Below, one piece after another: positions 10,446 to 32,000 of a DNA stretch of 32,000 nt; the first letter of the stretch is position 1, and each line of letters starts with the position of its first letter. The position numbers and the translations under genes are program-made. The stretch covers positions 2,220,001 through 2,252,000 of the forward strand of contig NZ_CP017260.1 in NCBI RefSeq assembly GCF_001735745.1, in the 5' to 3' direction. Source of the DNA: Formosa sp. Hel1_33_131. Its GTDB lineage: Bacteria > Bacteroidota > Bacteroidia > Flavobacteriales > Flavobacteriaceae. The notes under the pieces were generated by a model. It saw nothing but the letters and a program-made list of their open reading frames with translations, was not told the DNA's origin and searched no databases.

Positions 10446-13400
10446 ATGAAAAAGATTTACTATTTATTATTAACACTTGCGATTTCTTCGCTGTCTTTTG
10501 GGCAAGTTGAAGTTTTTAATTTAGCAGGTGGTGGTGCATTTCCAGACGGATGGACCGCAACAAACAATGTAGCAACCAATGATATTGACAAAGGTTCTTA
10601 CTTTTTGTTAGATTCCGGAGGCCCATCTGATATTATTGTATCAGCGGTCTATGATCTAAGTGCATACAGTTCTGCTGAATTCAGTTTGGACGTAGCCACT
10701 TTTGGTTCGGGAGATAACAATTCGGCTACCATCGAATTTTCTTATGATGGAGGTACTACTTACACTTCATCTGGAACCACAGCTGTTCCGACTTCATCTT
10801 CTTACATAGCTGGAGGAACCTTTACGGTAACGCCTTCCGCTCAAGTGGTGATTAAATTGACGAACACAGGAGTTGCTGGAAGAGGAAATAGATTAAAGAA
10901 CTTAATTCTGACTGGAGTGTCATCTCCATCAGCACCTGTAACAAATGCACCAACCCCTGATGCACGTGAAGCAGGAGATGTCATCTCTATTTATAGTGAT
11001 GCATACTCAAACATTACTGTCTCTGATTTCAATCCAAATTGGGGTCAGACAGGATTCACTACGGTTGATATAGCTTACGATCCAACAGGAGAAGGAAACA
11101 ACTCCGTTATAGCATACACAAACTTCAATTACCAAGGAACTGAATTTGATGCTCAAGATGCATCTTCAATGGAGTATTTGCATGTTGATGTTTGGACAGC
11201 GACCGCTGGAGCAGTTTTACAGGTTACACCAATAAACAGTGGTACAGGAGCTGCCGAGGTTCTAACAACTGTTACTTTAGTCGATGCAGGTTGGAGCAGT
11301 GTAGATCTTCCAAAAGCATCATTTACAGGGATGATCTGGGACAGTGTTTTACAATTAAAATTTGATGGACAAACAGGGACAAACCCTTCAGATGTCTATA
11401 TCGATAATATATACTTCTGGAAAGCAGCAGTAGCGCCTTTAACAGCGCCTGTAACAAATGCACCAACCCCTGATGCACGTGAAGCAGGAGATGTCATCTC
11501 TATTTATAGTGATGCATACTCAAACATTACTGTCTCTGATTTCAATCCAAATTGGGGTCAGACAGGATTCACTACGGTTGATATAGCTTACGATCCAACA
11601 GGAGAAGGAAACAACACCGTTATAGCATACACAAACTTCAATTACCAAGGAACTGAATTTGATGCTCAAGATGCATCTTCAATGGAGTATTTGCATGTTG
11701 ATGTTTGGACAGCGACCGCTGGAGCAGTTTTACAGGTTACACCAATAAACAATGGTACAGGAGTTGCCGAGGTTCTAACAACTGTTACTTTAGTCGATGC
11801 AGGTTGGAGCAGTGTAGATCTTCCAAAAGCATCATTTACAGGGATGATCTGGGACAGTGTTTTACAATTAAAATTTGATGGACAAACAGGGACAAACCCT
11901 TCAGATGTCTATATCGATAATATATACTTCTGGAAAACAGCAGATACAACTGCACCAGTTATAGAGCTAATAGGTGCTAATCCACAGGAATTAGCAGTAG
12001 GCGATGCTTACGTTGAATTAAATGCTACAGCAACAGATGATACGGATGATGATACAGCTTTGTCAGCCGCTATTTTAATAGACGCAACAGCAGTAGATAC
12101 AGCAACAGCTGGATCTTACTCAGTGACCTATAATGTATCGGATGCCGCCGGAAACGCAGCAACCGAAGTTGTAAGAACCGTAACCGTTGAAGCGGCTGGG
12201 GCTTGTGATGGAGCTACGGCGTTGACGATTGGCACACAACAATGTGGCAATACTAACGAGTTTGGAGACCTATTTGATGACAGTGTGTGTCTAGGTAATT
12301 ATGACGGTGGAGATGACTATATATTTTCTTACACTGCTACAAATACAGGGGATAAGTTAGATTTAACGATTACTGGACAACTTGGATATACAGGTTTTGC
12401 AATGTCTCAGGGATGTCCTGAAGGGGGTGCTGGTACTTGTGTAGGAGTACAAACGAGTTCTGGTTCAGGGGCTTTAAATTTTGAATCGGATGCCTTAATA
12501 GCTGGTGAAGTTTATTACATTCAAATCTCAACGTATCCTTTTCCACAATCCACCGATTTTTGTTTAGATGCTGTTTTAGTTCCTGCTCCTTCGTGTTTTG
12601 TACCTACTGATTTAGAGGTCGCTGCAGTTACTGTAACATCAGCAAACCTAACTTGGACTGTAAGTGCTTCAAACGAATCAGCATGGAATATTGAATATGG
12701 TGCTGATGGTTTTACACAAGGTGATGGTTCAGGAACTACGGTTGCCGTAACAGCAAATCCGTATGCGTTTACTGCACTAACAGCAAACACCAGTTATGAT
12801 GTTTATTTACAAGCCAATTGTGGTGCTGGTGATACAAGTGTATGGGTGGGGCCTTTAAGCTTTACAACGTTATGTGCTACTGAAATACCAGATTACACAC
12901 AAGGGTTTGATCCTTATACAGGAATTTGTTGGACAGAAGCAACAGGACCTATTGCAGGGCCAACTGCAGGTACAACAAGTTCTATTTGGTTTCAAGATGA
13001 ATTTGCAAATACAGATGCTTTAGGGCAATCTGCGGGAATCAATATATACGGTACGGGAGATGAATCTTGGTTGATCTCACCGACTTTTGACTTAAGTTCA
13101 GGAGGCTATGAAGTAAACTTAGATGTTGCGTTAACGGATTACGCAGCAGCAACGTTATCAGAAACAATTCGTGCTGATGATGCTGTATATGTAATGCAAT
13201 CAATTGATGGAGGTACTACGTGGACTACTATTTATACATGGGATGCTAATAACTCACCATCAAATACAGGAGATAATGTTACAATAGATGTTTCTACAGT
13301 AACAAGTGTAACCGTTCAATTTGCAGTATTTGCACTTGAAGGAAGTACTTCTGGAGGTGATTTAGACTTCTTTATCGATAATTTTGCAGTAAGAACACCA

Positions 13401-15164
13401 CCATCTTGTTTTGCGCCAGCCGCTAACTCTATGGCAGCCTCTCTTATCACGACTACATCAGCAAATTTGAGCTGGACAGCGGGAGCTACAGAAGCAGCTT
13501 GGAACATAGAATATGGCGCTACAGGCTTCGCTCTAGGCGCAGGAACTACGGTTGCTGTAACAGCAAATTCTTACGCACTTATGGGGCTCACAGCCAATAC
13601 GAGCTACGATTTTTATGTACAAGCCGACTGTGGAGGAAATGGAACGAGTGCATGGGTAGGGCCTTTTACCTTTACAACCCTTTGTGATGCGGTAACAACA
13701 TTCCCATGGACTGAGGATTTTGAAGGGATTACAACACCAAGCTTACCATCCTGTTGGTCTGAAAACGATAACAATGCTGATACCGATTTTTGGAAAACAT
13801 ATGATACTTACGGAGTTGCTAGTAGCAATGCGGCAGGTATGTATACAGATTATAATATCGATGGTTCTTGGTCTGGCCCAGGTACTAATAATGATGACTA
13901 TTTAATACTCCCTCAATTTGCGTTAACAGGAAATGAGCGTTTAAAATTTAGTGTGAGATCTAGATCTTCTGGAGAGCCAAATGACTATAAAGTTGTACTG
14001 TCAACTTCTAGTAATGACCCAACAGATTTTACGACAGATCTAATGGCTTTAACAGTATCGACTGCAACCCATACAGAACAGGTAATCGATTTAAGTGCCT
14101 ATTCTGGGAATGTTTACATTGCAATTCATGTTCCAGCTGATGGTCTTGATGGTTATTATTTATACGTTGATGATTTCACTGTTGAAGCGATTCCATCCTG
14201 TTTAGAAGTTACCGATTTAGCAGTAACCAACCTCACGACTACATCAGCAGATTTGAGCTGGACAGCGGGAGCTACAGAAACAGCTTGGAACCTAGAATAT
14301 GGCGCTACAGGCTTTGTACAAGGCGCTGGAACTACGGTTGCTGTAACAGCAAATTCTTACGCACTCACGGGGCTCGCAGCCAATACAAGCTATGACGTCT
14401 ATGTGCAAGCGGATTGCGGTGCTGGAGATACCAGTACATGGGTAGGGCCAATAACTATTTTTACAGGGTATTGTGTACCCTCATCATCTAGTTCTTCTAC
14501 TTTTATCGATAGTGTAACTTCAACTGGAGCATTTTCAGATTTGAATAATGGTGCTGATGGATACTCTGAGACTGGTTATGCCAATTACTTTAGTACGTAT
14601 GCTATACAATCTTTAGCAGGAGCTTCGTTTGATTTAACTGCAACTATTGTTGGAGGAACAGCTGGATTTGCAGTGTGGATTGATTATAATAATGATTTAA
14701 CATTTGACTCAACTGAAGTTGTTTTCAATACCACAAGTTATGCAAATGGACCGTTTACGGCAACAATAGCATTACCGGAAACACTTGCAGATGGTGATTA
14801 TAGAATGCGACTAATGGTTGATTATAATGATTCAAACCCTAATGATGATGCTTGTGCTTTCAATGGTACGAGAGCAGAAGCTGAAGATTATAAAATCACT
14901 ATAGATTCTTCTTTAGGAATGGATACCGTATCAAAATCTAACTTCACCTATTTCCCGAACCCAGTAAACAATGTATTGTCTATCAAAGCGCAAGCAAGTA
15001 TTGACAGTATTACCGTTTACAATATGTTAGGGCAAACGGTTGTGAGATCGACACCAAACACTACGACAACTACTGTTGACATGTCTGGATTACAGACAGG
15101 TGCTTACTTTGTTCAAGTAGCCATCAACAACAGTATAGAAACTGTACGAGTGATTAAAAATTAA
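10446..15164 (+). CDS. 1572-aa multidomain cell-surface (adhesin or glycan-binding-like) protein, T9SS cargo
   Basis: The order is a signal peptide (to SFG/Q), a MAM/choice-of-anchor-J-like N-domain, two copies of a 171-aa beta-sandwich-like module, and an Ig-like DUF5011-type domain ([12 protein letters not shown]...[13 protein letters not shown]). Next come a Cys-rich PPC-like domain and three [FN3 + choice-of-anchor-J/cleaved-adhesin-like] supermodules. The protein ends with a GEVED domain (YCVPS...[11 protein letters not shown]) and a T9SS type-A C-terminal domain ([15 protein letters not shown]...[21 protein letters not shown]). Domain names are recognised by motif only. Confidence 0.9.
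10935..11937 (+). repeat. intragenic tandem duplication, 2 x 513 bp (171 codons), nearly identical
   Basis: Copy 1 (10935..11447) and copy 2 (11448..about 11937) align base for base. By eye there are only 3 substitutions over about 490 nt (ACTCC/ACACC; CAGTGG/CAATGG; GAGCTG/GAGTTG). The copies diverge after TTCTGGAAA. Confidence 0.9.
12588..14473 (+). repeat. three FN3-like modules, each starting a 265-270-aa supermodule (intragenic repeats)
   Basis: The FN3-like units lie at 12588..12876, 13398..13686 and 14193..14473 (PSCF/PSCL...ANLTW/ADLSW...WN[IL][18 protein letters not shown]...L.ANTSYD.Y.QA.CG....S.WVGP). Units 2 and 3 share long stretches of near-identical DNA. Confidence 0.8.
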
Positions 15165-27321: not shown

Positions 27322-27580
27322 AATATGAGTTTTTTTGTAAAATTATGATTTTTTTACAGCATATCTAATATCCTAACAAAATTTTATCAAAAATCAGTTG
27401 ATTTACTGCTTACTGAAAGTTTTTGAAAACCAACCGTTACGTAGTGAGTGTTTATTGTTATTTTAAATAAAATAAACAATCGATTTTAGTTGCTTTTTCC
27501 GATTATTACAAGAAAACGCCCGCTTATTACGTAGATACGCCGTTCGTTACATGGCACTGTTAAAATGAAGTGTAGTGTAA

Positions 27581-27588
27581 TATATTTG
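27581..27588 (+). promoter_or_regulatory. candidate -7 box (TATATTTG) for the fibre locus
   Basis: Exact TAnnTTTG match ending 6 nt before the ATG at 27595. It lies downstream of the ORF-track ATG at 27565, which argues against that start. Confidence 0.45.
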
Positions 27589-27594
27589 TACTCA

Positions 27595-28188
27595 ATGAAA
27601 TCAATGAAATCAATTAACAAAATTACAATGACTTGTGGCATCCGTTATATTGCTGTTGCTTTTGTGATGTTTTCAGTAACGAATGTATTTTCTCAGGGAT
27701 TGATAAGTCAATCTCCTAAGTTGATAAAATCGGTACTAACCCATGCAGGTTCAAGTACTGTTTCGTATGAACATTCAGATGCATCAGGCATAACAAGAAC
27801 CACCAGTGTCCGGCAAAGTATTGGTCAACATGGAACGGTTGGATTATCAAACACCTCTCTAAGTTCTGTTCAGCAAGGATTTCTAAATCGTATAAATACA
27901 TTAAAGGTCGACAATACAAATTCTGAATTTGTTAAAACGTTCAATCTGTTATCTATTTTTCCAAACCCATTCAAAGCGTTTGTGAAAGTTAAATTTTCAA
28001 AACTGCCCGTACATCCAATATTTATAGAAGTGTTTGATGTGAGAGGGCGTTTGGTTTTAGATCAAGAATTTCAGCCCTCAGATATGATTACAGTACCAAC
28101 AGAACGTTTAGAAGACGCCAGTTATATGATCCGAGTTTCAAGTGGAAGTCAGGAGTATCTTAAAAAGTTAATTAAAGGAATCAATTAA
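27595..28188 (+). CDS. miniature T9SS cargo protein (passenger of about 90 aa + type-A C-terminal sorting domain)
   Basis: The signal peptide ends at VTNVFSQ. The short passenger carries SIGQ...VQQGF motifs. The C-terminal 80 aa, LSIFPNPFKAFVKVKF...IEVFDVRGRLV...ASYMIRVSSGSQEYLKKLIK, is a T9SS CTD. The start could be 27565, 27595, 27604 or 27628. Confidence 0.8.
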   Translation: MKSMKSINKITMTCGIRYIAVAFVMFSVTNVFSQGLISQSPKLIKSVLTHAGSSTVSYEHSDASGITRTTSVRQSIGQHGTVGLSNTSLSSVQQGFLNRINTLKVDNTNSEFVKTFNLLSIFPNPFKAFVKVKFSKLPVHPIFIEVFDVRGRLVLDQEFQPSDMITVPTERLEDASYMIRVSSGSQEYLKKLIKGIN

Positions 28189-28197
28189 ACGAGTTAT

Positions 28198-28836
28198 ATG
28201 AATTTGACTGTTTTTAAATATGTTGTATTTTTAGTAGGTGTCTCCGTGAGTTATGCGCAAGATATTTATGTAGAAACGTCTCTTTCAAGTGCTTCGTTTG
28301 ACGATTTTAAAAGCGATGATGGTGTTAACACGCTTGATAATAAGTATTCGAGGCCCGTTGAATTTGGAATTGGCGTCGGTGCGATTTTGAATGTCACAGA
28401 CAACAATCGTTTAAAATGGGATTTGGGCTTGAATTTCAATAAATATAAAATCAATACCAGTTTAAATACTTCCATTCCAACGGAGTATAATCTCAACTAT
28501 GTGTCTTTGAAAACAGGGCCTTATTTTTCATTGATCAATCATTCAAGAGTTAAATTACAGCTTCATGCACACAGTTCTCTAGATCATTTAATTTTCGGAT
28601 CGAATCAGTATAGCGATGTATATGATGATTTATTGGAGGGGAAAAACTTTAGTAAACTAGTGATGAATTACCATTACGGGGTTGCTGTCGAAATCACGTT
28701 AAGTAATTCGAGTTCATTATATATGAGCTATGATTCTAAAAATGGACTTACAAATAGCATTGATGGCGACGAATCCTACCGATTAAATGCAACGTCTATT
28801 TTGATGGGATTCCGTTTTAAATTAAATAAACTCTAG
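28198..28836 (+). CDS. small (about 8-stranded) outer-membrane beta-barrel protein
   Basis: 212 aa with a signal peptide (VSVSYAQ), about eight alternating-hydrophobicity strands, and the terminal strand SILMGFRFKL with an aromatic residue near the C-terminus. It starts 9 nt after the preceding stop. Confidence 0.7.
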   Translation: MNLTVFKYVVFLVGVSVSYAQDIYVETSLSSASFDDFKSDDGVNTLDNKYSRPVEFGIGVGAILNVTDNNRLKWDLGLNFNKYKINTSLNTSIPTEYNLNYVSLKTGPYFSLINHSRVKLQLHAHSSLDHLIFGSNQYSDVYDDLLEGKNFSKLVMNYHYGVAVEITLSNSSSLYMSYDSKNGLTNSIDGDESYRLNATSILMGFRFKLNKL

Positions 28837-28876
28837 ATGTTTAGCAAACTTTATAAAAAACAATAATTAAAGACTA

Positions 28877-30046
28877 ATGATGAAAATTCTAAAACAAATA
28901 GTAATAGTTTCGATATTCATTTTTATGAGTAAAGGGTTATTCGCTCAGTCTGCAGGAATTAATTACCAAGCATTAATTCTCAATTCTGAAGTCATTCAAA
29001 TTCCTGGTGCGGATGTTGAGGAAAACCAAGTCGCTTTAGGTCTCGAAGATGTTTCATTTCGTTTTACGATATCAGATGAAACATTTCAAGATTTGTATAT
29101 TGAAGAACAATCGATTACCACAGATGAAAATGGGATGGTCTCTTTAATAGTTGGTAGTGGAACCCCTTTATTCTCAACTTTTGATGCCATTGTGTGGAAT
29201 GGAACTCTAAAATATTTGAATATTGAAATTGATATTCACAGTCAAAACCAAGGCTATGTTTTTCTGGATATTCAAAAAATATTGTATTTGCCTCAAAGTG
29301 GTACAGGCTCCACAATTGATATTGTAAACGACATGACCAATGTTCCAATGGCTGATAATGATGTTGGGGATATTATTTGGATACTAGATGCGGACGGTCT
29401 TGGAAATTCTTCATTAATGGTTTGAGACGGTAATCAATGGCGTCCTGCACAAATGGATTTTGATCCTGAAAACGAATTTGCACTTGTAGTAGCCTTAGAC
29501 AATAACAATCGAGACCTTCAATTTCCCACGCCCAATACTGGTGAACAAGTTTGGAATCAAGCTTGTGATTGTATTCAAGTTTATGATGGTAATACTTGGA
29601 CGGATATCAGTTCTTTAGGGGCTATTTCGGCGACTAACGGAATCAATATCGGCGCAAATACGACTATCAAATTTGGAGGCGCACTTGTAGAGCCAACCAA
29701 ATTGACGACAGATGCCACCAATACACTTTCCATTGACGGATTGCAAGAAACAACGTCGACTATTGATAAAAACATAGTATTGATAGACACAAATTCTGGA
29801 GTCATTTCTAGGACGCCTTTAGGCAATGTTTTTCAAGAAGAAGTCACATTAACCATTGCGGCAAATGATGGACAAAATCAGTTTGCAACCCCTTCACCAA
29901 TAACAGACGATAAAAAAATTAATATTTACCGCAATGGCGTTCGTATAGGGTTTACGGTAGTCAATAACAATACAATGGTAGAGTTAGAACCTGCTGCTGT
30001 TTGCTATGCAGGAGATGAAATAAGAATCATACAATTTACTAATTAA
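28877..30046 (+). pseudogene. tail-fibre-like secreted protein A; one 389-codon reading frame interrupted by an in-frame TGA at 29423..29425
   Basis: ORFs 28877..29425 and 29453..30046 are in the same frame and separated by a single TGA. The text across it reads GDIIWILDADGLGNSSLMV*DGNQWRPA. Placing W at the stop recreates the GDxxW...WDGxxW motif seen at 29528..29604 and in gene C. There is a signal peptide (KGLFAQ) but no lipobox or T9SS CTD. Confidence 0.7.
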
Positions 30047-30054
30047 TAATCTTT

Positions 30055-30080
30055 AATAACAATAATAACAATAATAACAA
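30055..30080. repeat. 9-bp tandem repeat (AATAACAAT x about 2.9) in the A-B intergenic region
   Basis: AATAACAAT AATAACAAT AATAACAA read directly from the sequence. It sits 12 nt upstream of the first ATG of gene B. Confidence 0.85.
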
Positions 30081-30091
30081 ATCTAAACATT

Positions 30092-31053
30092 ATGAGAACA
30101 CAAAAACCAAACATTATGAAAAACAAATATTTAAAAGGGGGCATACTAGCCCTGATGATGATCGCAGGAACTGCGCTGCAAGCGCAGACGACTGCAACTA
30201 CAGACGCAGGTCTTGTTAAAGGAGCTGGAGCAGGAGTGTCCGTCAAATTGATAGACAACAAGGGAACTTCAAATACCTACAAACTAACAATGGTATTACA
30301 TCCATTACCTCTACTACAGCGGGTAGTGCAACTACAACTACTTGGCAATTAGGTGGTAGCTTAGTAGATGACACCTATATTGATGTATCTGGTAAAGTCT
30401 TTGGTCTTGATAGGATTGAATTAGTTAATATTGCAACTTCTCAAGCTTCTACAAATGCCACAAATAAATCTGTTCATGGAGGAACAGGGTCAGGTTGGAC
30501 ATTGCTTGTAAGAGATGAATCAACAGGAGATATTAAAAAGTTAAAAGCTACGGATTTGATTGTAAGTGGCTTTGTAGATTACACAGCTGATGCGACAGAT
30601 GAAGGTAATGGATTTAAAGCGATAACGGCTACTGGAATTCCAGCAACAGCTACGGATAGAGCTAAAATATGGGTGTATCGCAATGGTGCTAAGTTAATTT
30701 ACGGCGTGGACTTTACTGTTGCGGCTGATGAAGTTACCGTAACGGAAAAATCACCTACTACCGCTGGTAGTGCTGCAACTATATCGATTGCTGGTACTGC
30801 TTTTACAGCAAATAATATTGTTCCTACAACAATTGTTGCTGGGACTAGTGTAATTGGAAGCATTGTCGATGGAACGGCGTCAACAAAAGCTACAGTTACT
30901 GTAGATGGGTTTTCTTTCACGGCAAATGCCGTTGGAGTAACCACAATAGTAGCAGGAAGTACTATTACTGCTATAGTTGATGGAGTTGGAACATCGACGG
31001 ATGGTTGGCAATTATATACTGATGATATTTTTGAAATACAGTGGATTAAATAA
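30092..31053 (+). pseudogene. tail-fibre-like secreted protein B; the reading frame is broken by a -1 shift near 30289
   Basis: ORF 30092..30352 encodes a signal peptide (ILALMMIAGTALQAQ) and VKLIDNKGT, then decays into junk. The frame of ORF 30502..31053 is open from 30220. From about 30289 it encodes NNGITSITSTTAGSATTTTWQLGGSLVDDT...GWTLLVRDESTGDIKK, homologous to ATNGINIGANTTIKFGGALVEPT...NIVLIDTNSGVISR of gene A, well upstream of the TTG at 30502. Confidence 0.65.
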
Positions 31054-31113
31054 CCCCACACAACTATTTTCTACAACTTAACACAAGTTGTTAATACAAT
31101 TTTTATATTATAT

Positions 31114-31154
31114 CTCAGCTGCTTTTTATACCAAAAGGAGCAGTTGAGTTTATT
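31114..31154 (+). terminator. probable rho-independent terminator after gene B
   Basis: A 10-bp stem CTCAGCTGCT (31114..31123) / AGCAGTTGAG (31139..31148) with one G-U pair, extendable by TTTT/AAAA, followed by TTTATT. Confidence 0.55.
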
Positions 31155-31235
31155 AAGAGTTCTACATTTATTTAATACCACTCCCATTTTAAGGGAGAAT
31201 AGCAGATATCAACAGCCATTTTTAACTTATAAACT

Positions 31236-32000
31236 ATGAAAATTACCTTCACTCTAAACAAATCTAGACGCTATATCATCACACTTTTGGTGGTAGGTTT
31301 ATTGAGCTTTCAATCGCAGGCTCAAGTTGTTAAGGTCATTGACAGAAAAGGAACTATTACTGATGTCAACAATAATCAAGTAACCACATCGCTCGCTACT
31401 GCGAAGCCTACGAATCCAGTAATAGGAGATGTTTGGTTTGAAACTGATACATTGATATCTGAAATTTGGGATGGTACAAACTGGGTAAAAATAAATACAT
31501 GGCTTGGGTACAAAACTATCCATCATAACCACGCCACAATGCCTCTTGCCATCACACATGCACTTCATAACAATGCAGATATCCATATTGAAGGTGTGGC
31601 AGGGCTATCAATTACGAATACAGCTGTAAATGACGGCACAAACTTTTACATAACAAATACAACAGGGGCAGATAAAGCTTTATCTTTTGCAGGATTTACA
31701 GGAGCCTTTCTAAGGAATGGAGGTGCGGAAGCAGACCGATCTGTTTACGGTTTAACCCTAAAACCCAATACCCGTTATTTGTGCCATATTACAGAAAATT
31801 CAGGATTTTATTTTAACGCAACTGAGGCAGGGGGAAGTGGAGACATTGTGCCACTGTGGAAATCTGATACAAATGGAGGTGATTATGCTATAAACGATAT
31901 TATTAATTATGATGGTAATTTATACAAAAACCTCACGGGAGATAATTTTGATACCTTGCCAAATGCGGATGCCGCCAATTGGGAGGTTTTTGCAGGTGGT
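31236..32000 (+). CDS. tail-fibre-like secreted protein C (partial; continues beyond the window end)
   Basis: This ORF is open from the ATG at 31236 to the window end (255 codons) and is missing from the ORF track because it has no stop. It has a signal peptide (LLVVGLLSFQSQAQ), then VKVIDRKGT and PTNPVIGDVWFETDTLISEIWDGTNWVKI. Near the end there is a CBM5/12-like GDYAINDIINYDGNLYKNLTG...ADAANWEV. Confidence 0.8.
   Translation, partial: MKITFTLNKSRRYIITLLVVGLLSFQSQAQVVKVIDRKGTITDVNNNQVTTSLATAKPTNPVIGDVWFETDTLISEIWDGTNWVKINTWLGYKTIHHNHATMPLAITHALHNNADIHIEGVAGLSITNTAVNDGTNFYITNTTGADKALSFAGFTGAFLRNGGAEADRSVYGLTLKPNTRYLCHITENSGFYFNATEAGGSGDIVPLWKSDTNGGDYAINDIINYDGNLYKNLTGDNFDTLPNADAANWEVFAGG

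What the first reader, a model, noticed from the sequence alone, without database searches (positions are those of the whole stretch)
27565..32000. Uncharacterised surface-fibre locus: mini T9SS cargo + small OM barrel + three mosaic tail-fibre-like paralogs
After a 270-bp regulatory gap, five co-directional, tightly spaced genes form a unit that I cannot assign to any described system. (1) A protein of about 200 aa is almost entirely signal peptide plus T9SS type-A CTD, with a passenger of only about 90 aa (SIGQ...VQQGF). (2) A 212-aa, roughly 8-stranded OM beta-barrel starts 9 nt later. (3-5) Three secreted proteins (A, B, C) have Sec signal peptides but no lipobox, no CTD and no enzymatic motif. 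They are built from shuffled shared modules. The first is [PN]-x-G-[DE]-x-[VI]-W ... [VI]-[WY]-D-G-x-x-W, present twice in A and once in C. The second is VK[LV]ID[NR]KGT directly after the signal peptide in B and C. The third is NGI[NT]...[FL]GG[AS]LV[ED]xT...GL...[LV][IV]xDxx[ST]GxI in A and B. The fourth is a C-terminal I-x-[IV]-YRNG ... D[ED]I-x-I-Q-[FW] domain in A and B. C additionally ends (within the window) in a CBM5/12-like aromatic motif. A begins with an INYQA...FRFTI...Y.E...TTD.NG...IG.G...F..I.W...L.IE.D module that I recall from other Bacteroidota surface proteins. The GDxW...WDGxxW motif is one I know from phage minor-tail and tail-fibre proteins, yet no phage structural, integrase or lysis genes are present. 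Hypothesis: this is a host-encoded fibre, adhesin or receptor-binding array whose anchoring or export uses the barrel and the T9SS mini-cargo. How CTD-less, non-lipoprotein fibres would reach the surface is unexplained.
Basis: partly seen in the sequence, partly recalled or inferred. Interest (0 to 1): 0.8.

Follow-up and report, generated by a model that had tools for sequence, protein, structure and literature searches.

The report
Host-encoded modular tail-fibre-like cassette
Marine flavobacteria carry a conserved, unstudied gene set that appears to build a cell-surface fibre the way phages build tail fibres (base, connector, swappable tips), alongside a small secreted protein and a small outer-membrane barrel; in this genome two of the genes are broken.

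Summary
In this window gene A carries an in-frame TGA (29423-29425). Gene B carries a 1-nt deletion after 30268. Both genes are intact in at least 10 near-identical metagenome contigs. Gene C runs off the window. In the same species it is 1368-1838 aa and ends in a glycine-rich domain plus a Peptidase_S74 intramolecular chaperone.

This is not a prophage. No phage genes flank it, and A and B have no relatives in two phage collections. The cassette sits in different chromosomal contexts in 79 Flavobacteriaceae species. Its grammar is fixed: one A (base), one B (connector), then 0-4 variable tips. 88 of 95 tips share a VRVIDNKGT-type N-terminal module. A and B end in a domain that resembles the particle-docking N-terminus of T7-like tail fibres.

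A T9SS substrate usually rides along. In 24 loci it is the mini cargo plus an OmpA-like barrel, and only these loci have A's N-terminal domain. In 45 loci it is a type-B CTD protein.

The closest known system is the Bdellovibrio MAT fibres. My best reading is a segmented surface fibre or adhesin anchored through T9SS-delivered partners. Export and anchoring are inferred, not shown.

The parts
27322..27594 (.). Divergent intergenic region upstream of the cassette
   Evidence: The gap is 243-273 nt, depending on the start codon chosen. No Rfam match or tRNA lies here. The sigma-70-type scan is not informative for Bacteroidota.
27565..28188 (+). Mini T9SS cargo. It is 207 aa from the first ATG, or 197 aa from 27595 as gene callers start it. 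It consists of a signal peptide, a passenger of about 65-90 aa and a type-A CTD.
   Evidence: PF18962 E 5.3e-10 and TIGR04183 E 3.3e-9. 53 homologues were found, all about 185 aa and all carrying PF18962. The passenger motif KSxLTxxGS...QSIGQxGxVG...VQQGFLN is invariant, yet AF2 gives the passenger pLDDT 40-59.
27955..28173 (+). T9SS type-A C-terminal sorting domain of the mini cargo
   Evidence: The Pfam match covers residues 131-203. AF2 pLDDT is 85-93 here. There is a weak fold match to the NucA CTD in the T9SS complex 8glk_D.
28198..28836 (+). Small OmpA-like outer-membrane beta-barrel (212 aa)
   Evidence: This protein alone scores E 5e-3 against PF13568. In its family, 17 of 24 members hit PF13505 and 7 hit OmpA_membrane. 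It is always adjacent to the mini cargo in class-1 loci.
28880..29425 (+). Gene A, 5' part, ending at the premature TGA. It holds the signal peptide, the MAT_N-like N-terminal domain (28949-29299) and the first GDxW...WDGxxW unit.
   Evidence: NF053851 Bdello_MAT_N hits A at E 1.7e-4, and 24 of 33 homologues also hit it. AF2 pLDDT for this domain is about 80-90.
29423..29425 (+). Nonsense codon TGA in gene A (TGG in relatives)
   Evidence: The window has A at 29425 where six same-species contigs have G. The aligned column is W, Y or F in 33 homologues.
29426..30046 (+). Gene A, 3' part. It holds the second GDxW...WDGxxW unit, the helix module shared with B, and the C-terminal docking-like domain (29831-30043).
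   Evidence: A and B align by BLASTP at E 4.9e-5. The C-terminal domain matches the N-terminal domain of podophage tail fibres: 9efk_AE at E 8e-4 and rmsd 2.8 A, plus 8es4_F, 8vbx_S, 8i4m_M and 7rfv. A sequence profile hits the same region of 9efk at E 0.064.
30092..30268 (+). Gene B, 5' part. It holds the signal peptide and the VKLIDNKGT motif (30242-30268). The 1-nt deletion lies immediately after base 30268.
   Evidence: All six relatives have an extra A at this point.
30271..31053 (+). Gene B, 3' part, in the shifted frame. It holds the TWQLGG helix module and the C-terminal YRNG...EIQW domain, which carries an insertion of about 80 aa specific to this clade.
   Evidence: The B family has at least 1261 clusters at 90% identity, all named 'hypothetical protein'.
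31114..31148 (+). Terminator-like hairpin between B and C (14-bp stem followed by TTTATT)
31236..32000 (+). Gene C, the variable tip protein, cut by the window end. It holds the signal peptide, the conserved tip N-module (31326-31490), the first repeat module and a CBM5/12-like motif (31875-31928).
   Evidence: Full-length C in the same species is 1368 or 1838 aa and carries CBM_5_12 x3, Gly_rich_2 and Peptidase_S74. An SDERVK motif is present. The window allele diverges from all relatives after base 31868.

Best explanation
The locus is a chromosomal cassette of Flavobacteriaceae. It encodes a segmented fibre built on phage tail-fibre principles.

PROPOSED MECHANISM
- All three fibre proteins are exported by Sec.
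- A is the base. After the signal peptide it has an N-terminal beta-sandwich domain distantly similar to the conserved N-domain of Bdellovibrio MAT fibres. It ends in a small domain that looks like the particle-docking N-terminus of T7-like tail fibres.
- B is the connector. It starts with the VRVIDNKGT motif and ends in the same docking-like domain.
- One to four tip proteins (C here) start with the same motif inside a conserved module of about 60 aa. They then diverge completely. They are the exchangeable binding ends.
- Here the tip has CBM5/12-like repeats and a glycine-rich domain. It also has a Peptidase_S74 chaperone, which would drive trimer folding and then cut itself off.
- I propose serial docking: the A C-domain holds the B N-motif, and the B C-domain holds the tip N-module.
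- I also propose that the base is held at the cell surface by the T9SS-secreted mini protein together with the small outer-membrane barrel. In other genera a type-B CTD protein would play this part.
- The likely job is adhesion to glycans, particles or other cells.
- In this window's strain A and B are knocked out, so the fibre is probably not made.

SHOWN VERSUS INFERRED
Shown by computation: gene content, lesions, conservation, grammar, domain similarities and absence from phages. Inferred: trimeric state, docking order, surface location, T9SS dependence and ligand.
For: - **Not phage.** Downstream of C in the same species lie an ISL3 fragment, PCMT and DUF5686. The cassette sits in unrelated housekeeping contexts in Polaribacter, Urechidicola and Tenacibaculum. 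A and B have no relatives in IMG/VR or INPHARED.
- **Fibre-like.** C carries Peptidase_S74 (42 bits against a cut-off of 22), an SDxxxK motif and a match to MYRF 7dc3. The AF2 model of A has 75 BFVD hits at E<=1e-3, many of them tail fibres, depolymerases or S74 proteins. A's C-domain matches podophage fibre N-termini.
- **Grammar.** The order A, B, tips holds in essentially all 87 loci, with one A and one B per cassette. 88 of 95 distinct tips carry the N-motif.
- **Tip hypervariability within one species**.
- **Link to MAT fibres.** NF053851 is the only NCBIfam hit for 24 of 33 A homologues. The MAT paper describes Sec-exported trimeric fibres, with or without S74, that share a conserved N-domain.
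- **Link to the anchor.** Mini plus barrel occur in 24 of 79 species loci, and only those loci have A_Ndom. 45 of 79 instead have a CHU_C type-B CTD protein. Mini plus barrel also precede a 978-aa Confluentibacter protein that shares only A_Ndom, and a barrel precedes a 2013-aa one.
Against: - No experiment bears on location or function.
- The NF053851 scores (about 21 bits) are far below the curated cut-off of 60.
- The docking-domain similarity is modest (Foldseek E 8e-4, TM to target 0.32). The domain sits at the opposite end of the protein compared with phage fibres.
- The AF2 models are monomers with pLDDT 68-69. The putative helix region of A is unmodelled, so trimerisation was not tested.
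- The mini passenger has no confident fold.
- Ten of 79 loci show no adjacent T9SS partner, five of them on full-length loci. Zobellia and Flavobacterium daemonense also show none.
- An 8-stranded barrel cannot itself pass a folded trimer, so the export route stays unexplained.
- Class 1 and class 2 largely follow phylogeny, so co-occurrence could partly reflect shared ancestry.
Confidence: 0.5

Rival explanations
1. The proteins form a secreted or vesicle-borne glycan-binding or depolymerase complex, not a cell-anchored fibre. They would use tailspike-like architecture to capture or cut algal or chitin polysaccharides. They would be released into the medium or loaded on outer-membrane vesicles. 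The mini cargo and barrel would play no anchoring role.
For: The tip has CBM5/12-like repeats. BFVD hits include capsule depolymerases and a ChiA1-BD-binding domain protein. Another tip gives a weak K1-lyase rider match, and a class-2 protein gives a weak ArabFuran-catal match. From knowledge of the system, type-A T9SS cargo in flavobacteria is often released rather than anchored. The hosts are marine polysaccharide degraders.
Against: No catalytic domain passes threshold in A, B or most tips. The cassettes lie in housekeeping contexts rather than beside SusC/SusD or CAZyme clusters, apart from stray neighbours. The fixed base and connector plus variable tips fit an attachment organelle better.
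Confidence: 0.2
2. The fibres are real, but the mini cargo and barrel (and the class-2 CHU_C protein) are merely conserved neighbours with an independent function. The fibres would reach their site by an unrelated route.
For: Ten of 79 loci lack an adjacent T9SS partner, and so do Zobellia and F. daemonense. T9SS cargo genes are numerous in these genomes, and another one lies in this same window. Only the CTD, not the passenger, aligns credibly between the class-1 and class-2 partners.
Against: There is a strict one-to-one association of mini plus barrel with A_Ndom across genera. It recurs in front of non-A proteins that share only that domain. The spacers are 9 nt and 43 nt, and a terminator-like hairpin comes only after B.
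Confidence: 0.15
3. The locus is a prophage remnant, or the tail-fibre module of a tailocin or extracellular contractile injection system encoded elsewhere.
For: The folds are tail-fibre-like and an S74 chaperone is present. There are weak PHROG hits. In Zobellia two Phage_T4_gp19 tube-like genes follow the cassette. An ISL3 fragment lies next to C.
Against: A, B and C all have Sec signal peptides, whereas phage tails and contractile injection systems assemble in the cytoplasm. No phage or injection-system genes lie within 8-10 kb in 87 loci. No relatives occur in phage collections. The locus is stably syntenic across species.
Confidence: 0.04
4. The stop codon and the frameshift are sequencing or assembly errors, and the cassette is intact in the source organism.
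For: All Illumina-type same-species contigs have intact A and B. Some long-read assemblies of this species show many spurious frameshifts (L002, L003, L093).
Against: Neither lesion lies in a homopolymer. All other 26 ORFs of at least 120 aa in the window look intact. Two lesions confined to 2.1 kb of a 32-kb window would be unlikely if errors were spread evenly.
Confidence: 0.25

Closest known systems
Bdellovibrio bacteriovorus mosaic adhesive trimer (MAT) fibres (Caulton et al. 2024, PMC10769870)
   Same: Both are host-encoded rather than phage-encoded, and both are Sec-exported. Both have a conserved beta-rich N-terminal domain directly after the signal peptide. Both have phage-fibre-like bodies and mosaic, swappable C-terminal tips, some ending in a Peptidase_S74 chaperone-protease. 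In both, the cell-surface anchor and the outer-membrane crossing are unknown. A's N-domain gives NF053851 as its only NCBIfam hit.
   Different: MATs are single long polypeptides encoded by 21 dispersed paralogs. Here the fibre is split into base, connector and tip genes in one cassette, and the tip with S74 lacks the MAT-like N-domain. The similarity to NF053851 is far below the family cut-off. The hosts here are non-predatory Flavobacteriaceae. Dedicated T9SS cargo and barrel partners are present.
Phage tail fibres and tailspikes with a C-terminal intramolecular chaperone (Peptidase_S74: K1F endosialidase, T5 pb1)
   Same: The C-terminal S74 domain has the SDxxxK motif and follows a fibre body. 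The N-terminal attachment module is conserved and the distal part is variable.
   Different: The proteins have signal peptides, there is no virion, and no homologues occur in phage collections.
N-terminal particle-docking domain of T7-like podophage tail fibres (LME-1 orf22 9EFK; also HRP29, PhiM1, P-SCSP1u; CBA120 TSP4 N-terminus)
   Same: The last 75 aa or so of A, and by homology of B, have this fold. In phages this domain joins the fibre to another structural protein.
   Different: The domain sits at the C-terminus instead of the N-terminus. The similarity is modest (E 8e-4). The binding partner is unknown.
Segmented T4 long tail fibre (gp34-gp35-gp36-gp37), cited from general knowledge
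   Same: A fibre is assembled end to end from several gene products encoded in order, with the receptor-binding piece last.
   Different: No sequence relationship was found. Serial assembly here is only inferred from complementary module distribution.
T9SS type-B CTD cargo held on the surface by PorP/SprF-type barrels (SprB/SprF, PG1035/PorP), cited from general knowledge
   Same: A T9SS substrate gene is paired with an adjacent outer-membrane barrel gene. Class-2 cassettes carry a type-B (CHU_C) protein.
   Different: In this window the CTD is type A. The barrel is a small OmpA-like one and not PorP/SprF. The large fibre proteins themselves have no CTD.

Membership tests
T9SS type-A CTD cargo (gene 1) | C-terminal sorting domain matching PF18962 / TIGR04183 above the curated cut-off | tested here: met
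   PF18962 scores 39.9 bits against 27, and TIGR04183 scores 36.6 against 23. All 53 homologues carry PF18962.
T9SS type-A CTD cargo (gene 1) | N-terminal Sec signal peptide and a host that has a T9SS | tested here: met
   A hydrophobic leader ends ...VFSQ. A second Por_Secre_tail cargo of 1572 aa lies in the same window. T9SS core genes themselves were not looked for.
OmpA-like / OMP_b-brl small outer-membrane barrel (gene 2) | Match to PF13505, PF13568 or PF01389 above cut-off | tested here: inconclusive
   The window protein scores 17.3 bits, below 27. Family members do better: 17 of 24 hit PF13505 (best E 2.3e-9) and 7 hit OmpA_membrane. No structure model was made.
Peptidase_S74 intramolecular-chaperone fibre proteins (gene C) | C-terminal PF13884 domain with the catalytic SDxxxK motif | tested here: met
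   This was met in full-length C of same-species contigs: 42.3 bits against 22, motif FSDERVKENI, and a match to MYRF 7dc3 at E 7e-5. The domain lies beyond the window end, and the window allele diverges after 31868, so its own C-terminus is unseen.
Peptidase_S74 intramolecular-chaperone fibre proteins (gene C) | Trimerisation and autocleavage | not testable with these tools
   This needs expression of C with an S-to-A mutant, or a multimer model.
Bdellovibrio MAT superfamily | Conserved beta-rich N-terminal domain of about 130 aa directly after the signal peptide (NF053851) | tested here: inconclusive
   A has a domain of about 115 aa in that position. NF053851 is its only hit, at E 1.7e-4, and 24 of 33 homologues hit it (best 3.5e-5). 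All scores are about 21 bits against a cut-off of 60.
Bdellovibrio MAT superfamily | One polypeptide running from the N-domain through a trimeric beta-helix or prism to an adhesive tip (S74 or non-S74) | tested here: not met
   Here the N-domain (A) and the S74 tip (C) are on separate proteins. B and C lack the N-domain.
Bdellovibrio MAT superfamily | Surface localisation and glycan binding | not testable with these tools
   No experimental data exist for these proteins.
Prophage tail-fibre module | Adjacent phage head, tail, terminase, integrase or lysis genes | tested here: not met
   None occur in the window or within 8-10 kb in same-species and related loci.
Prophage tail-fibre module | Homologues in phage genomes | tested here: not met
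   There were no hits for B in IMG/VR or for A and B in INPHARED. PHROG matches are only weak and short.
Tail fibres of extracellular contractile injection systems or tailocins | Linked sheath, tube and baseplate genes, and cytoplasmic assembly (no signal peptide) | tested here: not met
   A, B and all tips have signal peptides. gp19-like tube genes occur only next to the Zobellia cassette and in none of the other 87 loci.
T7-like tail-fibre N-terminal docking domain | Fold match, and location at the fibre N-terminus contacting adaptor or nozzle | tested here: inconclusive
   The fold match is E 8e-4, prob 1.0, rmsd 2.8 A over 77 columns, and a sequence profile gives E 0.064. The position is C-terminal, so this is a resemblance and not membership.

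The most novel reading that the evidence does not exclude
The cassette reveals a previously unrecognised way of putting CTD-less proteins on the Bacteroidota surface. Sec-exported fibre subunits would fold and trimerise in the periplasm, helped by S74. They would then be carried out through, or captured at, the T9SS by a dedicated mini cargo and small-barrel pair that recognises the fibre's N-terminal domain. In other genera a type-B CTD protein would do this. That would also identify the kind of surface element that anchors MAT-type fibres, which is still unknown in Bdellovibrio.
Probability: 0.25. Interest if true: 0.85.

Novelty: new variant of a known kind. Interest (0 to 1): 0.62.

Why it matters
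**Scale.** The connector protein B alone has at least 1261 clusters at 90% identity, all annotated 'hypothetical protein'. A's modules hit 9871 clusters at 50% identity. The cassette occurs in ecologically important genera and in fish pathogens: Polaribacter, Formosa-like clades, Tenacibaculum, Zobellia, Maribacter, Winogradskyella and Flavobacterium.

**If it is a surface fibre with swappable tips**, it is a strong candidate for several roles. These include attachment to algae, particles or hosts, a phage or grazer target, and a source of strain-level surface diversity. The tip allele changes abruptly within one species.

**Broader questions.**
- It extends the recently described idea of host-owned, phage-like adhesive fibres (the MAT family) from a predator to free-living Bacteroidota.
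- Its tight genetic link to T9SS partners gives a tractable handle on an open question: how such fibres are exported and anchored.
- The two inactivating lesions in this strain hint at selection for, or tolerance of, loss.

Tried and rejected
- **Genetic code 4 or recoding of the TGA in A.** Rejected. Neighbouring genes use TGA-free frames normally and close relatives have TGG.
- **Programmed frameshift in B.** Rejected. Relatives simply have one more base.
- **Homology between the mini passenger and the class-2 CHU_C protein.** An iterated search merged them. Inspection showed that only the CTD aligns credibly, so I do not claim it.
- **Solved-structure relatives for B and for the barrel.** The hits (titin Ig, thermitase, 8vcb) are chance-level or generic.
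- **Fold search with the mini-cargo model.** Nothing reached E<=1e-3.
- **Structure prediction of B.** Not done.
- **Pfam PF26696 'PTL_trimer'.** It is precomputed on some A homologues. It is not in the local Pfam copy and I found no paper naming it.
- **Literature searches.** I searched for T9SS with tail fibre, for Peptidase_S74 with Bacteroidetes, and for T9SS piggy-back export. None gave anything relevant.
- **Source species.** It was not in the species-representative genome scan at more than 72% identity. The window's own sequence beyond 32000 could therefore not be read.
- **Exact lookup of the 1572-aa window protein.** It failed.
- **Rfam, tRNA and repeat scans of the locus.** All were empty or trivial.
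- **gp19-like tube genes next to the cassette.** They are specific to Zobellia.

Full report
**What is in the window**

Five ORFs on the + strand follow a divergent gap of 243-273 nt. The spacers between them are 9, 43, 45 and 182 nt.

- **Gene 1 (27565/27595-28188)** is a genuine T9SS type-A cargo. PF18962 scores 39.9 bits against a cut-off of 27, and TIGR04183 scores 36.6 against 23. Almost nothing lies between its signal peptide and its sorting domain.
- **Gene 2 (28198-28836)** is by itself only a weak barrel match. Its family, however, is an OmpA-like or OMP_b-brl barrel: 17 of 24 members hit PF13505 with a best E of 2.3e-9.
- **'Protein A' is interrupted.** An in-frame TGA at 29423-29425 takes the place of the aromatic residue in the first [VI]-[WY]-D-G-x-x-W motif.
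- **'Protein B' is frameshifted.** One base is missing directly after the VKLIDNKGT motif, after base 30268.
- **Gene C (from 31236)** runs off the window.

**Are the lesions real features of the species?** No. Exact look-up of the barrel and mini-cargo proteins returned more than ten metagenome contigs that are 98-99% identical to the window over 13.7 kb.

- In these contigs A is 388 aa and B is 320 aa. The short-read assemblies all have both genes intact.
- The window has A at 29425 where all six aligned contigs have G (TGG). It also lacks an A that all six have.
- Neither site is a homopolymer, and every other large ORF in the window is intact.
- I therefore lean towards real inactivation in this strain. 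Only the reads can decide.

**The rest of gene C**

In the same species C is 1368 aa or 1838 aa. It contains the following:
- repeats of about 170 aa, each ending in a CBM5/12-like motif that passes Pfam's cut-off in the full protein;
- a Gly_rich_2 domain;
- a C-terminal Peptidase_S74 intramolecular chaperone with the catalytic-type motif FSDERVKENI;
- a final coiled-coil tail.

The S74 part also matches MYRF (7dc3). Downstream of C lie an ISL3 transposase fragment, a small ORF, PCMT and DUF5686, and no phage genes.

The window's C allele is about 99% identical to the others up to base 31868. It then falls to at most 77% identity to any module. The tip is therefore hypervariable within one species.

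**Not a prophage, and widely conserved**

A has 149 hits at 45-99% identity. All are about 385 aa and all are 'hypothetical'.

The unit of mini cargo, barrel, A, a B-like protein and variable proteins recurs in Polaribacter staleyi and Urechidicola vernalis, in unrelated neighbourhoods. A scan of one genome per species found 79 loci across Polaribacter, a Formosa Hel1_33_131-like MAG, Tenacibaculum, Algibacter, Winogradskyella, Lutibacter, Flavobacterium and others. The Formosa-like MAG shares the window's left-flank synteny.

B, searched as a profile, has at least 1261 clusters at 90% identity, again all hypothetical. These also include Zobellia, Maribacter and Muricauda. Neither A nor B has a relative in IMG/VR (B only) or in INPHARED phage genomes.

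**Grammar of the cassette**

I built HMMs for the modules and scanned every ORF of 87 loci.

- Each cassette has exactly one A-type protein: mid region, helix module and C-terminal domain.
- Each has exactly one B-type protein: N-motif VRVIDNKGTIKYLQ, the TWQLGG helix module and the same kind of C-terminal domain.
- These are followed by 0-4 tip proteins.
- 88 of 95 distinct tips begin, right after the signal peptide, with the V-x-V-I-D-x-K-G-T motif. Three more have obvious variants of it.
- The motif usually sits inside a longer conserved module: EVRVIDNKGTI..V.NNQVTTS..AP..P.EGDVWFDT....K.YDG..W.
- After this module the tips are unrelated to each other. Some end in S74; others have recurrent endings such as VVLYTAYK, HLTGDLKR or INVVFVVK.
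- The order A, B, tips does not vary.

**Structure-level evidence**

The AF2 model of A has mean pLDDT 69. It is confident for the N-domain and for the last 70 residues or so, and poor for residues 247-310.

Against the PDB, the best low-rmsd matches are all the N-terminal, particle-proximal domains of podophage tail fibres:
- LME-1 9efk_AE, at E 8e-4 and 2.8 A;
- HRP29, PhiM1 and P-SCSP1u;
- the N-terminal hub of CBA120 TSP4.

A sequence profile of the A family independently picks the same residues of 9efk (E 0.064). In LME-1 this chain is the tail fibre, whose proximal end contacts the adaptor and nozzle. Against BFVD the model has 75 hits at E<=1e-3. Many are tail fibres, capsule depolymerases and S74-containing proteins, although with high rmsd, as expected for extended monomer models.

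**The link to T9SS partners**

Among the 79 species loci:
- 24 have the mini cargo and/or the barrel upstream (class 1);
- 45 instead have, at the downstream end, a protein of about 385 aa with a CHU_C type-B T9SS sorting domain (83-87 bits; class 2);
- 10 show neither, and 5 of those are on truncated contigs;
- no locus has both.

A's N-terminal domain occurs only in class 1. Class-2 A proteins start with a different module.

An exhaustive profile search gave an independent test. A's N-domain also heads other, longer proteins. In Confluentibacter sediminis a 978-aa 'beta strand repeat-containing protein' shares only this domain with A. It is again directly preceded by a mini cargo (E 8e-26 to my family HMM) and a barrel (E 4e-28). 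A 2013-aa example is preceded by a barrel. The pairing of mini cargo and barrel with this N-domain is therefore not just inherited along with B and the tips.

The mini passenger has invariant motifs but no confident fold of its own. That is what one would expect of a segment that folds on a partner.

**Closest known system**

The only NCBIfam hit of A is NF053851, the N-terminal domain of the Bdellovibrio mosaic adhesive trimer (MAT) fibres. 24 of 33 homologues also hit it, but always far below its cut-off.

The MAT paper (PMC10769870) describes 21 fibres with these properties:
- host-encoded, Sec-exported and trimeric;
- 13 with an S74 domain and 8 without;
- a conserved beta-rich N-domain right after the signal peptide;
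- variable adhesive tips;
- demonstrated surface location;
- an N-domain that 'would presumably tightly bind a surface element' still to be identified.

The present cassette works like this family on every point I could compare. It fails the single-polypeptide architecture, because the N-domain and the S74 tip are on different proteins. I therefore do not file it as a member.

**How it most likely works (inference)**

The modules are distributed in a complementary way:
- A has a C-domain but no N-motif.
- B has both.
- The tips have the N-motif but no C-domain.

This suggests end-to-end assembly, A to B to tip, much as the T4 long tail fibre is joined from successive gene products. Several tips per locus would give alternative or branched ends.

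S74 implies trimer folding followed by self-cleavage, which would expose the tip. The CBM5/12-like repeats suggest a glycan or chitin ligand in this species.

The base would be held at the surface through its N-domain by the T9SS-secreted mini protein and the small barrel. How the CTD-less trimers cross the outer membrane is not explained by anything I found. A carrier role for the T9SS partner is the most interesting possibility, and I found no precedent for it in the searchable literature.

A terminator-like hairpin after B (31114-31148) suggests that the mini cargo, barrel, A and B form one transcription unit. The variable tip would then be expressed separately or by read-through.

**Rivals**

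- *Prophage, tailocin or contractile-injection-system fibre module.* This is essentially excluded by the signal peptides, the contexts and the absence from phage collections. The pair of gp19-like tube genes after the Zobellia cassette is unique to that locus.
- *Released glycan-binding or depolymerase complex.* This remains possible (about 0.2).
- *T9SS partners are bystanders.* This is possible (about 0.15), but the N-domain co-occurrence argues against it.
- *The two lesions are errors.* I put this at about 0.25. It affects only whether this strain makes the fibre.

**Verdict**

This is a new variant of a known kind: host-owned, phage-like adhesive fibres. It is widespread, wholly unannotated, and has an unusual multi-gene, T9SS-linked organisation.

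Noticed in passing
window 10446-15164 (+): A 1572-aa T9SS type-A cargo with a bacterial surface Ig-like domain, two fn3 domains, a GEVED domain and Por_Secre_tail. It is unrelated to the cassette, but it shows that the organism uses T9SS for large surface proteins.
   Followed up: partly
window 31868-32000, and L001/L003/L090 gene C: The tip gene is hypervariable within one species. Alleles of 1368 and 1838 aa exist. The window allele drops abruptly from about 99% to at most 77% nucleotide identity, consistent with recombination among repeated modules or tip swapping.
   Followed up: partly
window 31114-31148: A terminator-like hairpin with a 14-bp stem lies between B and C. This suggests that the tip gene is transcribed separately or by read-through.
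   Followed up: no
window 30054-30080: A short tandem TAATAACAA x3 lies in the A-B spacer.
   Followed up: no
L098 10384-11261 (Zobellia roscoffensis): Two Phage_T4_gp19 tail-tube-like genes (143 and 148 aa) lie 555 bp after the A-B-tip cassette, and no T9SS partner is adjacent. No such genes occur in the other 87 loci.
   Followed up: partly
L100 4743-8937 (Confluentibacter sediminis); L101 2820-9602: The mini cargo and barrel (barrel only in L101) also precede much longer proteins of 978 and 2013 aa. These share only A's N-terminal domain. The anchor-like trio therefore serves more than one kind of fibre.
   Followed up: yes
P0296 (3949 aa), P0307 (2121 aa): The 'helix' module of A (profile positions 242-315) is repeated up to 33 times in giant uncharacterised proteins. 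A's modules hit 9871 clusters at 50% identity overall.
   Followed up: no
L098 7028-7954, and several A homologues: Part of A is already catalogued as Pfam PF26696, named 'PTL_trimer' in the precomputed table. The local Pfam copy lacks it and I could not find what the name refers to.
   Followed up: partly
L001 17361-17627: A DDE_Tnp_ISL3 transposase fragment lies immediately downstream of gene C in the same species. It is the only mobile-element trace near the cassette.
   Followed up: no
L002, L003, L089, L091, L093 (ERZ106466xx assemblies): These same-species contigs carry many split housekeeping genes, so they look like error-prone long-read assemblies. I did not use them as evidence for or against gene integrity.
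   Followed up: no
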